From IMG/VR virus record IMGVR_UViG_2563366900_000004: DNA of 39,499 nt; one strand, 5' to 3'. This document shows positions 6,001 through 9,000 of the stretch, in pieces. The stretch's first letter is position 1, and each line of letters opens with the position of its first letter. The DNA is from a virus. Its lineage: Duplodnaviria; Heunggongvirae; Uroviricota; Caudoviricetes. The position numbers were made by a program.

Positions 6001-9000
6001 TTCAACCGTCATTTTCAATGTTCGCGCTTGACGATACTCAACAAGTCCACTCGCTGATTTACCGCTTTTAATGTGCGCTTCTTGCATACTTTCAAGTTGG
6101 TCTACCAGTGAGCGGCGAACGGCTTTTGACTCGCGAGCGGCAACTCGCAATGCTTGCTTGATTGACATCTCAATGATAACCATCGAAGTTTTGTTCGCTT
6201 TTTGCACTACACTTTTTGTGTAGTGCTCTCCATCCAATTCATCTTCAATTTTCTCGATGAATTTGTTATTACGAACCTCCGGCTCACCGCACTGTCTACG
6301 AGCCTGATTTACCATCTCAAGCAGGCGCTGGCTGTCAATGGTTTTATCCGTGACAACGGATCCGATGTTTGCTACATTCTTAAAAGTCATTAGGCATTCC
6401 TTATGTGGTAGTAAGGGTGTGACATAGGCCGCCAGCAGCACACTGGCGGTTTTCTTTTTGCGCCGTCCGGCGCACCAATCAATGAATCCATTCCTCGCCG
6501 CGCAGTTTTGCCAGCATTGGCTGAGCGTTCTTTACGACAAAATTGTTGGTATCAAGATTCTTCATTTCACGAAGAAGTGATTTCTTGGTTTCTTCTGACA
6601 TATAGCGAGTCTCATATGCGATATCGTAAATCCTTCCTGAAAGCTCAGAACAAATTTGCTTCATTCCTGGGTAGATGTGTTTGCACATTTGTTGACTCTT
6701 CTCCATCCACAATTGTAAGTAGCAGAGATTAACCAGTTCTTCGTCAGTAAACTGTTTTGCAATCGGTGAGCATTCTGCCTGCCGATCCAAAATATCCAGC
6801 ACCCAGCGGCGGAACTCTTTGGCTACCGGAGTGCGAGCAAACATCGCGATTAGGTGGGCACCGCGTAGTGAGAAAACTCGCACTTTTTTGCGATAATTTC
6901 CTGAGGTACTCACTTCGAGTACCTGAGTCATTCCGGCGCTAAACTCATCGCTATACTTGTTATAAATCATTGTTACTGCACGACTATTTGCGTATTTAAG
7001 TGCAGATGCAATATTAGATGATGTAAACCAAACACCATGCATATCACGGGTGGGCACCAACTCAACTCCGTGGAAGTTGTAATCTGATTTTGCTACAATA
7101 TTCATGTTAGTTTCCTTGCATACGGTTACTGACATAGAGGCCCGGTTTGTGTTCGCGCACTGCCGGGCTTCACTATTTTTATGTCCTAGCATTCTTCTCT
7201 CCAATCAGTCCGTACACTTTTCTCAATTGATAAATAAGTTCCGTGTTGAACTGTCGACACTCTTTTTCTCCATTTCTTTCAATCGCCTTCCTTACATCCT
7301 CTGGGAAACGAACCTTGCGTTGATACATGTCTTTTGCTTTTTCCATCTCCACTCCTTAAATAGCCCCACTGTGGGGCAATTGAAATTGTCACACCGTGCG
7401 TCATTGAAGTCAACCCCACCGTGGGGCATAATTTACTTATTGTGAATTTTTCCTGTTTGGACTAATGGTATGAGTAGAGAAGACCCTCAACTTCGGATTA
7501 GGCTTCCTGTTGAATTAAAAAAAATAATTGAAGCGTCATCAAAACAAAATAATCGTTCTATGAATGCTGAGATTGTCACTCTGCTTGAGTTGGCGATTCG
7601 TGTTTGTCGTGATTTTGGGCCGGAGGATGGTCCTATCGTTCAGCAGTTTAAAGAACAACTAGATGCGATAAACAGAAAATATGATAAAATCGAGCATGAA
7701 AAACTTATACCTCAACTTTTAGAAATCATAGAAAAACAGAAAAAACAAGTAGATAAACTTATTAGCATGGTTGAAAGATCAATTCCTCTTTCAGAGGAAT
7801 ATAAGCAGAAATATCTTGGTGATGACAACAAAAAACCCACCTGACGGTGGGTTAATTTTTGCCTTTTTTGGACCATATTGACTACTCATAAAATGAGATC
7901 AATATTTAATCGCCCAATAACGGGTGTATGTTGAGGTATATCATGGCGAAAAAACCAGGTGAAAACACAGGAAAAAACGGCGGAATATACCAAGAAGTTG
8001 GCCCACGCGGCGGTAAGAAAGACAATTTTGCCACCGTCAAGGACAACGAAAGGCTTCCGCCAACAACAAAGCCAGGTCATGGCTGGGTATTGGATAAGCG
8101 AACTCCAGACAGCAAAAAGTAATAATCAAGCCGGGTCACTCCGGCTTTTTGATATGTCGCTCGCAGAACTCAACAAGCCTGCTCATTAAGTAGCAGTAAG
8201 TCTCATTGGCTCTTCCTGGTTCAACATCAACACCGACCCTTGAGCAGATATCGAATGCCATGTGAGCGCACTCATGGGCAATAGTAGATAGTTTGCCATT
8301 GAACACGCCTATCACATGCAAAACACCATTCTCGCTGCTCATTGTATGAGACGCTCCGTTGGCATCCGAGTCCTGCACGTCCACACCAAGTTTTTGATGC
8401 AGGCGTTGCCATTCTGGAAAGTCTCTACAAAACACAATTGTACCGCTCTCAAAGAGCGGAACGAGCATCTTTGGTACGTTTCCAATGTTAACTTTTTTCA
8501 TGGTATCCTGCTCAAAACTAAGGAGGTTGGTGTGAAGCGATGGTTCCTCATAATTACTGTTTTCGCGATCATTTACGCTATTTTCCCTGCATTAAAAGCA
8601 CCAATGCAAATAATTTCACTAGCAATAATTGCAATTGGTGCTTTCATTACAGTATCCGTACTTGTGTTTAAGGTTTTAAAGTTTTTAGTTTGGCTATCAA
8701 AAGATGATGGATGCAAAGTTCATCAAGAAAAAGAAGGCAAAATAACCAAAGTTGACTAACTGTCACTAGCGAGCCATGTAATAATCCCCGTGCGGGCAAT
8801 GGTTTTTGCTTCATCTGTTGATAGGGTTTTCTCCCATCTCTTAAATGCCCCAGATTGCATCAGTTTCCTTTCTATTGCGCGTCTCACTTCTGCTCTGTCT
8901 ACTGGTGCGTTTTGCAGGCGAAATAGCATTGATTTAAACTCAGGAGAAGACAGTAGAGCATCAGCAGCCTTTATCCTGCTTGTTTTCCCTGACATCAATG

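What the first reader, a model, noticed from the sequence alone, without database searches (positions are those of the whole stretch)
7363..7427. Two GC-rich palindromes flanking a Pant-like promoter
GCCCCAC-T-GTGGGGC (7363-7377) and CCCCAC-C-GTGGGG (7414-7427) are near-identical perfect palindromes about 50 bp apart. One lies just downstream of the -10 and the other directly upstream of the -35 of a minus-strand TTGACT-17-GACAAT promoter, in the divergent region between the arc-like and Mnt-like genes. They resemble the symmetric P22 Mnt operator in style.
Basis: seen in the sequence. Interest (0 to 1): 0.5.

Follow-up and report, generated by a model that had tools for sequence, protein, structure and literature searches.

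The report
Operator palindromes of an antirepressor switch
The two GC-rich palindromes are real, strongly conserved protein-binding sites (operators) in the control region of a prophage antirepressor switch related to the classical phage P22 Mnt/Arc/Ant system: an uncharacterised variant of a known design, not a new kind of element.

Summary
GCCCCAC-T-GTGGGGC lies at 7363-7377 and CCCCAC-C-GTGGGG at 7414-7426, between an arc-like gene (55 aa, minus strand) and an Mnt-like gene (124 aa, plus strand).

- Palindrome 2 fills the spacer of a divergent promoter for the Mnt-like gene (TTGAAG-17-CATAAT).
- A third, imperfect dyad (TGTCACAC-C-GTGCGTCA, 7387-7403) fills the spacer of the Pant-like promoter, 25 bp from each palindrome centre.
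- The whole 645-bp arc/operator/mnt unit is a portable mosaic cassette.

In 63 distinct variants of the cassette from Enterobacterales prophages, the arms of palindrome 2 are about 97-100% invariant while its central base is free. The non-operator spacer next to it is hypervariable.

The palindromes share geometry, position and the CCAC-N-GTGG core with the proven P22 Mnt operator. Other Mnt-family genes, including mnt-only loci, carry their own palindrome of this type.

Best reading: these are Mnt-type operators bound by the 124-aa protein. Site 1 would repress the antirepressor operon and site 2 would autoregulate. The central dyad is probably the Arc-like operator. Which protein binds which site is inferred, not shown.

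Novelty: new variant of a known kind. Interest is moderate.

The parts
7363..7377 (.). Site 1: perfect palindrome GCCCCAC-T-GTGGGGC (17-bp frame 7362-7378, centre 7370). It lies at about +1 to +16 of the Pant-like promoter, the position of P22 O_mnt.
   Evidence: In 62 relatives the arms vary only by transitions at 7366, 7374 and 7376. 59 of 62 keep at least one perfect half-site, and only 7 are fully perfect.
7387..7403 (.). Central dyad TGTCACAC-C-GTGCGTCA (6 of 8 positions symmetric, centre 7395). It fills the spacer of the Pant-like promoter and abuts the -35 of the Pmnt-like promoter, which is the position of P22 O_arc.
   Evidence: It is nearly invariant in loci that were retrieved through the proteins, so the conservation is not a selection artefact. 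Rare variants change the right half to the outer type, GTGAGGCA or GTGGGGCA.
7414..7426 (.). Site 2: perfect palindrome CCCCAC-C-GTGGGG (17-bp frame 7412-7428, centre 7420). It lies in the 17-bp spacer of the Pmnt-like promoter and directly upstream of the Pant-like -35.
   Evidence: The arms are 97-100% invariant in 63 variants while the centre is free (C47 G10 T3 A3). The site is perfect in 60 of 63.
7385..7413 (-). Pant-like promoter: -35 TTGACT 7413-7408, 17-nt spacer, TG-extended -10 GACAAT 7390-7385. The predicted start is near 7378.
   Evidence: The hexamers are conserved in relatives as TTGACA/T and GACAC/AT. The transcription start is not mapped.
7404..7432 (+). Pmnt-like promoter: -35 TTGAAG 7404-7409, 17-nt spacer, -10 CATAAT 7427-7432. 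The predicted start is near 7439. Its -35 overlaps the Pant-like -35.
   Evidence: The TTG of the -35 and five of the six CATAAT positions are invariant in 63 variants (7431 is A in 59, C in 4). The transcription start is not mapped.
7179..7346 (-). arc-like gene (55 aa, RHH). It is the first gene of the antirepressor operon. The DNA-facing triad of its beta-strand is Q9, K11, R13.
7470..7844 (+). Mnt-like gene (124 aa): an N-terminal RHH domain (R2, Q6, R8, R10, numbered without the Met) plus a long C-terminal helix (residues 55-104).
6479..7105 (-). Antirepressor gene (208 aa, Bro-N + P22_AR_C domains) downstream of the arc-like gene. It is the cargo controlled by the switch.
   Evidence: This part is 95% identical to phage JEP4 and SPN3UB antirepressor genes and lies outside the cassette.
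7834..7868 (+). Intrinsic terminator of the Mnt-like gene, shared with P22 mnt. It marks the right border of the cassette (about 7828).

Best explanation
The palindromes are Mnt-type operators of an immunity-I-like antirepressor switch. The switch is carried on a self-contained 645-bp cassette (7183-7827) made of the arc-like gene, a tripartite operator/promoter region and the Mnt-like gene.

Shown:
- Two divergent sigma-70-type promoters have overlapping -35 hexamers.
- Three 17-bp dyads are centred at 7370, 7395 and 7420.
- The conservation pattern is typical of symmetric protein sites: invariant arms and a free central base.

Inferred:
- The prophage makes the 124-aa Mnt-like RHH protein from the Pmnt-like promoter. 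It oligomerises through its long C-terminal helix, as the P22 Mnt tetramer does. One RHH dimer then binds each half-site, CCCCAC and GTGGGG.
- Occupancy of site 1 (+1 region) blocks transcription of the arc-like-antirepressor operon and so keeps the antirepressor off in the lysogen.
- Occupancy of site 2 (Pmnt-like spacer, abutting the Pant-like -35) gives negative autoregulation and helps occlude the Pant-like promoter.
- After infection, when no Mnt-like protein is present, the Pant-like promoter fires. The Arc-like protein then binds the central dyad in the Pant-like spacer and shuts the operon down again, as P22 Arc does.

Confidence, by step: about 0.9 that the palindromes are operators for the cassette's own RHH proteins; about 0.55-0.6 that the binder is specifically the 124-aa protein; about 0.45 that the central dyad is the Arc-like site.
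For: (1) Conservation. In 63 distinct variants, the 50-bp block 7385-7434 is at least 94% conserved at every position (97% or more at all but 7431), apart from 7386, 7407, 7408 and the palindrome centre 7420. The neighbouring positions 7379-7384, the leader 7452-7469 and codon third positions are only 27-83% conserved. Promoter spacers normally drift, so both spacers appear to be binding sites.

(2) Taxonomic breadth. The region is almost unchanged in Proteus, Yersinia, Pantoea, Citrobacter, Kluyvera, Raoultella and Rouxiella, where the Arc-like protein is only 69-90% identical.

(3) Homology to a proven operator. P22 O_mnt is AGGTCCAC-C-GTGGACCT, and site 1 is AGCCCCAC-T-GTGGGGCA. They match at 11 of 17 positions, have the same single-base centre, and occupy the same place after the Pant -10.

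(4) Family rule. Seven of the eight Mnt-family loci checked in annotated phages (not counting P22 itself; N7 has only an imperfect copy) carry a perfect or near-perfect palindrome upstream, and in six of them it has a single central base and an AC-N-GT core. The palindromes are ST160/ST64T TAAGACCAC-G-GTGGTCTTA, Gally AGACCAC-T-GTGGTCT, Emek TAGTAC-C-GTACTA, ES2 TATAAC-C-GTTATA, Klebsiella phage TGGTATAAC-C-GTTATACCA, and IME10 a shorter TACC-N5-GGTA. ST160, ST64T and Gally have mnt but no arc or ant, so this palindrome type travels with Mnt.

(5) The Mnt-like N-terminus MSREDPQLRIRLP is invariant while its C-terminal domains vary.

(6) Natural variants.
- L078 has lost the arc/ant side and site 1 but keeps site 2 and an intact Mnt-like gene.
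- In the TL-2011b lineage (3 contigs) the Mnt-like gene is frameshifted. There, site 2 has 3 changes and the -10 has become CATACT.
- L288 has a much-diverged Arc partner and changed site 1 and central dyad. It keeps the Q-R-R strand of the Mnt partner and an identical site 2.

(7) Association. 107 of 110 IMG/VR occurrences of the site-2 signature have both RHH genes beside it.

(8) Other alleles. Cassettes with different RHH proteins have different palindromes in the same two places.

(9) Structure. The 124-aa model has an RHH domain followed by a 50-residue helix, and the top fold hits are Arc, AmrZ and CopG.
Against: - No binding data exist and no transcription start sites are mapped.
- In most relatives the strong, perfect site is site 2, in the repressor's own promoter, while site 1 is the weaker one. 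That is an odd design for a maintenance repressor, unless site 2 alone also blocks the Pant-like promoter.
- The Arc-like triad (Q, K, R) is close to the Mnt-like triad (Q, R, R). All three dyads also share the half-site frame TGnCnCAC. Specificity therefore cannot be assigned from sequence alone.
- In TL-2011b site 1 stays perfect although the Mnt-like gene is broken.
- The distance from site 1 to the central dyad floats between 24 and 27 bp. This argues against obligate phased cooperation between sites 1 and 2.
- Proteins with the same Q/N/R triad (ST64T, Emek, ES2) have different operators, so no simple recognition code supports the assignment.
Confidence: 0.58

Rival explanations
1. Swapped assignment that follows P22 logic exactly. 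The Arc-like protein binds the two outer palindromes, giving autorepression at +1 of its own promoter and repression of the Pmnt-like promoter through its spacer. The Mnt-like protein binds the central dyad, blocking the Pant-like promoter while sitting at about -44 of its own promoter without repressing it.
For: - This reproduces the known P22 behaviour (from my own knowledge of the P22 literature): Mnt represses Pant and favours Pmnt, while Arc represses both.
- The central dyad and the Mnt-like N-terminus are both invariant.
- In TL-2011b site 1 is perfect although the Mnt-like gene is frameshifted.
- Salmonella L184 keeps an Arc partner with the QRKFRFP strand and a window-like site 2. Its Mnt-like strand (R8K) and its site 1 both differ.
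Against: - The CCAC-N-GTGG core and the position of site 1 match the proven O_mnt. The central dyad occupies the place of O_arc.
- Mnt-only phages keep this palindrome type without any Arc gene.
- Site 2 persists together with the Mnt-like gene when arc is deleted (L078). It decays when the Mnt-like gene is broken (TL-2011b).
- L288 keeps site 2 with the Mnt-type strand although its Arc partner is much diverged.
Confidence: 0.2
2. Shared tripartite operator. Both RHH paralogues recognise all three dyads (common half-site TGnCnCAC) but with opposite orders of affinity. This would give a lambda OR-like two-repressor switch between the divergent promoters.
For: - There are three 17-bp dyads with 25-bp centre spacing and a shared half-site frame. 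Positions +/-4 and +/-6 act as discriminators: C,C at site 2, mixed at site 1, purine or T at the centre.
- The two proteins have similar DNA-facing triads.
- Variants of the central right half convert to the outer type.
Against: - This is purely an inference from sequence.
- P22 Arc and Mnt have similar strands yet distinct operators (my own knowledge of the literature).
- The strict invariance of the central dyad at the discriminator positions suggests a dedicated reader rather than a weak shared site.
Confidence: 0.13
3. The palindromes act as nucleic-acid hairpins, for example a 5' stabiliser stem in the arc-like mRNA, a terminator or a cruciform, rather than as protein-binding sites.
For: Site 1 would form a 6-bp GC stem with a 3-nt loop at the 5' end of the predicted leader, with a free energy of -10.7 kcal/mol.
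Against: - Site 2 lies outside both predicted transcripts.
- Neither site is followed by a T run, and neither is called as a terminator.
- There is no compensatory covariation. The -4 T and +4 A changes at site 1 are anticorrelated (2 joint cases against about 9 expected, Fisher p = 3e-5, not corrected for phylogeny). 59 of 62 variants keep one perfect half-site rather than keeping the pairing.
- There is no Rfam match.
Confidence: 0.04
4. The 85-aa Mnt-like protein (5378-5635) is the binder, as the first reader offered as an option.
For: It is the strongest Pfam Arc hit in the region (3e-15) and is encoded 1.7 kb away.
Against: - Its beta-strand (AQFHLRL) differs from that of the 124-aa protein.
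- It is the homologue of the ST64T/IME10-type mnt gene next to the tailspike gene. It has its own palindrome, TACCG-AAA-CGGTA, at 5305-5317, in the place where ST64T has TAAGACCAC-G-GTGGTCTTA.
- The cassette with both palindromes occurs in other prophages that lack this gene (L002).
Confidence: 0.03

Closest known systems
Phage P22 immunity I region: Mnt repressor and its operator O_mnt
   Same: - Divergent mnt and arc-ant operons.
- A symmetric 17-bp operator with a single central base and a CCAC-N-GTGG core, placed just downstream of the Pant -10 (11 of 17 bases identical to site 1).
- An RHH repressor with a helical C-terminal domain.
- The same genome position, the 'ant moron' between the ejection-protein genes and the tailspike gene.
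   Different: - The outer half-site bases differ (CC instead of GT), and so do strand residues 6 and 8 (Q, R instead of H, N).
- There is a second, better-conserved copy of the operator inside the spacer of the repressor's own promoter. P22 has no such copy, and it implies autorepression.
- The two promoters overlap only at their -35 hexamers.
- The 124-aa protein is only about 33% identical to P22 Mnt over the RHH domain.
Phage P22 Arc repressor and its operator O_arc
   Same: - A small RHH protein encoded as the first gene of the ant operon.
- A conserved dyad located in the spacer of the Pant promoter.
   Different: - The central dyad shows no sequence similarity to the 21-bp O_arc (TAGA-type subsites). 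Instead it resembles the neighbouring Mnt-type sites.
- The 55-aa protein scores just below the Pfam Arc cutoff (19.2 against 20.4 bits) and reaches only E = 0.1-0.3 against Arc in the PDB.
mnt-only 'ant morons' of ST64T, ST160 and Gally, and other Mnt alleles (Emek, N7, ES2, Klebsiella ST899-OXA48phi17.1)
   Same: Each Mnt allele has its own perfect palindrome with a single central base upstream. This shows that operator and repressor co-vary as immunity-like specificity alleles.
   Different: Those loci have one palindrome. The present cassette has two plus a central dyad. Outside the AC-N-GT core, the half-site sequence is specific to each allele.
Phage lambda OR (OR1-OR2-OR3 between PR and PRM)
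   Same: Three 17-bp dyads at a centre spacing of about 24-25 bp lie between two divergent promoters. One site is in or near the repressor's own promoter, which suggests autoregulation.
   Different: This is an analogy only. The proteins here are RHH, not helix-turn-helix. Nothing is known about affinity order or cooperativity. The spacing from site 1 to the centre is not fixed (24-27 bp).

Membership tests
P22-type immunity I (Mnt/Arc/Ant) control region | Divergently transcribed maintenance-repressor gene and arc-ant operon, separated by a short intergenic region | tested here: met
   The arc-like gene (7346-7179, minus) and the antirepressor gene (7105-6479, minus) face the Mnt-like gene (7470-7844, plus), with a 123-bp intergenic region.
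P22-type immunity I (Mnt/Arc/Ant) control region | The maintenance repressor is an Mnt-family RHH protein with a C-terminal oligomerisation helix | tested here: met
   Pfam Arc PF03869 at 3e-7. The best PDB sequence hit is 1MNT at 1.6e-3. The AlphaFold2 model shows an RHH domain plus a helix at 55-104, with mean pLDDT 70. Foldseek top hits are AmrZ, Arc and CopG, with probability at least 0.9 for the listed Arc, AmrZ and CopG chains. The oligomeric state was not tested.
P22-type immunity I (Mnt/Arc/Ant) control region | The first gene of the ant operon is a small Arc-family RHH protein | tested here: inconclusive
   The window protein scores 19.2 bits against a cutoff of 20.4. 16 of 21 family members hit Pfam Arc at E <= 0.01, the best at 2e-4. 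A profile search against the PDB finds Arc only at E = 0.1-0.3, although in the correct register.
P22-type immunity I (Mnt/Arc/Ant) control region | An antirepressor gene lies downstream of arc | tested here: met
   Bro-N (1.8e-10) and P22_AR_C (5.3e-13) domains.
P22-type immunity I (Mnt/Arc/Ant) control region | A symmetric 17-bp Mnt operator overlaps the start of Pant | tested here: met
   Site 1 has the same geometry and position as O_mnt and matches it at 11 of 17 bases. Binding itself was not tested.
P22-type immunity I (Mnt/Arc/Ant) control region | A 21-bp Arc operator lies between the -35 and -10 of Pant | tested here: inconclusive
   A conserved dyad occupies that position (7387-7403), but it has no sequence similarity to O_arc.
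P22-type immunity I (Mnt/Arc/Ant) control region | A small antisense RNA (sar) opposite the arc-ant junction | tested here: inconclusive
   A candidate exists on the plus strand. It has an extended -10 (TGcTACAAT, 7091-7099) followed by two hairpins and a U run at 7104-7180. The free energy is -35.1 kcal/mol and the z-score is -6.0. No Rfam family matches.
P22-type immunity I (Mnt/Arc/Ant) control region | The repressors bind the operators and repress Pant and Pmnt | not testable with these tools
   This needs EMSA or footprinting, plus reporter assays.
Intrinsic terminator or structured RNA element | A stable stem-loop followed by a U run, or covariation that preserves the pairing | tested here: not met
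   The sites are not called as terminators. The changes at +/-4 are anticorrelated rather than compensatory. There is no Rfam hit.

The most novel reading that the evidence does not exclude
The cassette is a compact, portable, lambda-OR-like bistable switch built from two paralogous ribbon-helix-helix proteins. They would compete for three related 17-bp operators (half-site TGnCnCAC, with discriminator positions +/-4 and +/-6) and have opposite affinity orders. The switch would control whichever antirepressor it is recombined next to.
Probability: 0.13. Interest if true: 0.6.

Novelty: new variant of a known kind. Interest (0 to 1): 0.38.

Why it matters
Antirepressor modules decide whether a resident prophage stays silent or is induced. 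They also set a second layer of phage immunity.

This allele is widespread. About 250 protein clusters are related to the 124-aa protein. The arc-like gene was found in prophages of eight other genera of Enterobacterales, from Citrobacter and Proteus to Yersinia pestis, and the cassette itself in E. coli. Among 50,697 sequenced phage records it occurs only in TL-2011b, and I found none of its operator sequences in the searchable literature.

It offers a clean natural series of repressor/operator specificity alleles for ribbon-helix-helix recognition, and a 645-bp portable regulatory cassette. The two-copy operator, with one copy inside the repressor's own promoter, differs from the textbook P22 circuit. 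It predicts autoregulation that P22 Mnt lacks.

Tried and rejected
- Chance: rejected and overridden by the conservation data.
- Terminator or RNA hairpin: rejected.
- The 85-aa Mnt as binder: rejected as unlikely.
- Literature: a search for the operator sequences gave no hits. Searches for Mnt contact residues gave nothing useful. I tried two PMC ids recalled from memory for the classical Knight and Sauer papers, and neither is held. Statements about which Mnt and Arc residues contact DNA, and about the P22 regulatory logic, therefore rest on my own knowledge.
- Phage database, DNA level: near and distant searches found only TL-2011b for the cassette.
- Natural experiment: I looked for a case where only one of the two proteins had been swapped. 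In the P0018/P0024, P0039 and L288 cassettes both partners change to some degree. They support the shared architecture but do not cleanly assign binders.
- Recognition code: a simple residue-to-base code was rejected, because proteins with the same Q/N/R triad have different operators.
- Structure: the prediction confirms the fold only and says nothing about DNA specificity.
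Full report
**1. Observation**

The sequence shows GCCCCAC-T-GTGGGGC at 7363-7377 and CCCCAC-C-GTGGGG at 7414-7426. The centres are at 7370 and 7420.

These are the only exact CCCCACNGTGGGG matches in the 39.5-kb window. Single 6+1+6 palindromes are common (13 observed, 11.2 expected). A pair with identical arms within 100 bp occurred in 1 of 300 Markov simulations.

The minus-strand promoter TTGACT-17-GACAAT (7413-7385, with a TG extended -10) is found by the scan. Its spacer is palindrome 2, and its -35 overlaps the -35 of the minus-strand promoter.

**2. Genes**

- To the left, on the minus strand, lies a 55-aa arc-like gene (7346-7179). It is followed by an antirepressor gene with Bro-N and P22_AR_C domains (7105-6479) and a second 242-259-aa gene.
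- To the right, on the plus strand, lies a 124-aa protein. Its N-terminus hits Pfam Arc at 3e-7, and its best PDB sequence match is the Mnt repressor 1MNT. An AlphaFold2 model shows strand-helix-helix followed by a 50-residue helix (mean pLDDT 70). The best fold matches are AmrZ, Arc and CopG.
- For the 55-aa protein, 16 of 21 family members hit Pfam Arc, with the window copy just under the cutoff.

The window is a P22-like phage or prophage. This region is the 'ant moron' between the ejection-protein genes and the tailspike gene (PMC2629481).

**3. A mosaic cassette**

Flanking DNA matches known phages up to 7182 on the left (JEP4, SPN3UB antirepressor genes) and from 7828 on the right (the 3' end and terminator of P22 mnt). 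The stretch 7183-7827 has no close match in 50,697 phage records.

The cassette is 98.9% identical in two of 5,426 E. coli genomes. There it sits between tail genes of a lambdoid prophage, next to a different antirepressor.

Other E. coli prophages (MS10495, 55989) have the same flanks but a different arc/operator/mnt allele.

The only sequenced phage carrying the arc-like protein is TL-2011b.

**4. Comparative evidence**

Searches with the two proteins retrieved more than 100 IMG/VR contigs and eight species-representative genomes: Rouxiella, Raoultella, Pluralibacter, Citrobacter, Kluyvera, Proteus, Pantoea and Yersinia pestis.

In 63 distinct intergenic variants:
- The arms of palindrome 2 are 97-100% invariant, while the central base 7420 is free (C47 G10 T3 A3).
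- Five of the six CATAAT positions are invariant; 7431 is A in 59 variants and C in 4.
- The Pant-like spacer contains an almost invariant imperfect dyad, TGTCACAC-C-GTGCGTCA (7387-7403, centre 7395). It lies exactly 25 bp from the centre of site 2 in 62 of 63 variants.
- Positions 7379-7384, the leader 7452-7469 and codon third positions are only 27-83% conserved.

Site 1 is looser. It shows transitions at 7366, 7374 and 7376. Only 7 of 62 variants are perfect, but 59 of 62 keep at least one perfect half-site. Its distance to the central dyad floats between 24 and 27 bp.

The -4 T and +4 A changes at site 1 are anticorrelated. That is the opposite of what selection for a hairpin would produce.

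**5. Relation to the known system**

In the same orientation, P22 reads: arc start ... AGGTCCAC-C-GTGGACCT (O_mnt) ... ATAGTAGAGTGCTTCTATCAT (O_arc, in the Pant spacer) ... mnt.

Site 1 (AGCCCCAC-T-GTGGGGCA) shares 11 of 17 bases with O_mnt, including CCAC-N-GTGG. It also has the same single-base centre and the same position after the -10. The central dyad occupies the position of O_arc but does not resemble it.

Seven of the eight other Mnt-family loci I examined carry their own palindrome, and six of those have the single-central-base AC-N-GT design:
- ST160/ST64T: TAAGACCAC-G-GTGGTCTTA
- Gally: AGACCAC-T-GTGGTCT
- Emek: TAGTAC-C-GTACTA
- ES2: TATAAC-C-GTTATA
- Klebsiella phage: TGGTATAAC-C-GTTATACCA
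- IME10: a shorter TACC-N5-GGTA, without the single central base.
- N7: only an imperfect copy of the Emek site.

ST160, ST64T and Gally have mnt but no arc or ant, so this kind of palindrome travels with Mnt.

The window's 85-aa Mnt-like gene is the homologue of the ST64T/IME10-type gene next to the tailspike gene. It has its own palindrome, TACCG-AAA-CGGTA (5305-5317), at the homologous spot. It is therefore an unlikely binder of the GC-rich palindromes.

**6. Who binds what**

The Mnt-like N-terminus MSREDPQLRIRLP (R2, Q6, R8, R10) is invariant while its C-terminal domains vary. The Arc-like strand is MYQRKVRFP (Q9, K11, R13).

Three natural variants link site 2 to the Mnt-like gene:
- L078 has lost arc/ant and site 1 through a deletion. 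It keeps site 2, CATAAT and an intact Mnt-like gene.
- In the TL-2011b lineage (three contigs) the Mnt-like gene is frameshifted. There, site 2 has three changes and the -10 is CATACT.
- L288 keeps the PQLRLR strand and an identical site 2. Its Arc partner, site 1 (GCCGCAC-T-GTGCGGC, a symmetric double change) and central dyad all differ.

Other cassette alleles repeat the architecture with different sequences. They have one palindrome near the arc start and one inside the mnt promoter spacer abutting the -10. An example is AAGTCAA-A-TTGACTT and GAAGTCAA-G-TTGACTC + TACAAT in Citrobacter and a metagenome contig. Salmonella L184 and E. coli MS10495 show partially similar arrangements.

Against a clean assignment:
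- All three dyads share the half-site frame TGnCnCAC.
- The two proteins have similar DNA-facing residues.
- Site 1 remains perfect in TL-2011b.
- The strongest site lies in the repressor's own promoter.

**7. Mechanism proposed**

Shown: the anatomy and its conservation.

Inferred:
- The Mnt-like oligomer binds sites 1 and 2.
- Site 1 blocks the arc-like-antirepressor operon in the lysogen.
- Site 2 autoregulates the Pmnt-like promoter and abuts the Pant-like -35.
- The Arc-like protein binds the central dyad to shut the operon down after a burst following infection.
- A candidate sar-like antisense RNA (7104-7180) may add translational control of the antirepressor.

Rivals, with my confidence in each: the swapped assignment (0.2), a shared lambda-OR-like operator (0.13), hairpins (0.04), and the 85-aa protein as binder (0.03).

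**8. Association test**

The signature CCCCACNGTGGGGCATAAT occurs in 110 IMG/VR stretches. In 107 of them both the Mnt-like N-terminus and the Arc-like strand are encoded beside it. The three exceptions are:
- L226: an Arc variant that my pattern missed.
- L285: site 1 matched on the other strand.
- L257: a copy at a contig end, with the upstream side cut off and a downstream gene that starts differently from the Mnt-like gene.

L288, the fourth row the script flagged, is counted among the 107: it carries diverged Mnt and Arc partners that my patterns missed.

**9. Verdict**

This is a real, conserved set of operators belonging to an uncharacterised allele of the P22-type immunity I switch. 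It is a new variant of a known kind. The interest is moderate. Its value lies in the dual or tripartite operator layout, in the portability of the cassette, and as a natural series for RHH specificity.

Noticed in passing
window 7091-7180 (+): Candidate sar-like antisense RNA opposite the junction between the arc-like and antirepressor genes. It has an extended -10 (TGcTACAAT, 7091-7099) followed by two hairpins and a U run. The free energy is -35.1 kcal/mol and the z-score is -6.0. No Rfam family matches. The terminator stem shows a compensatory G-C to A-T change in E. coli CFSAN018748 (L002).
   Followed up: partly
window 5305-5317 and 5378-5635 (+): Second Mnt-family gene (85 aa), divergent from the tailspike gene. 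It has its own palindrome, TACCG-AAA-CGGTA, at the spot where ST64T carries TAAGACCAC-G-GTGGTCTTA. It looks like an older mnt-only 'ant moron' remnant, and the arc/ant/mnt cassette now sits beside it.
   Followed up: partly
window 7183-7827; L002 3030-3695; L180 2587-3192: The arc/operator/mnt unit is a mosaic cassette with sharp borders. The same cassette (98.9% identical) sits among the tail genes of a lambdoid prophage, next to a different antirepressor. Other E. coli prophages have identical flanks but a different arc/mnt/operator allele.
   Followed up: yes
L001 2790-2900 (phage TL-2011b) and L161-L163: The Mnt-like gene is frameshifted after MSREDPQLR in three independent contigs. Site 2 has decayed to GCACAC-G-GTGAGG and the -10 to CATACT. 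Site 1 is a perfect palindrome, and the Arc-like strand has changed from K11 to R.
   Followed up: partly
L182 1400-1500; L183 570-660 (proteins P0018, P0024): Natural domain swap. A different RHH N-terminus (MSEKFPSQMQDKFTVRFP) is fused to the same C-terminal domain as the window's 124-aa protein. It comes with a different 53-aa arc partner and AAGTCAA-type palindromes in the same two positions.
   Followed up: partly
L288 8660-8800: Distant relative with an identical site 2. Its site 1 is GCCGCAC-T-GTGCGGC, a symmetric C/G to G/C double change at +/-4 that keeps the palindrome perfect. Its Arc partner is much diverged.
   Followed up: partly
window 30750-30892, inside the 316-aa ORF 30360-31310 (-): Array of (C/T)ATGTGCGG repeats with a 12-bp period, next to an AT-rich stretch and a CCCCCATTGGGGG palindrome (30697-30709). 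It looks like a lambdoid replication origin inside the initiator gene.
   Followed up: no
window 5622-5643: Bidirectional intrinsic terminator between the convergent 85-aa mnt gene and the second antirepressor-like gene.
   Followed up: no
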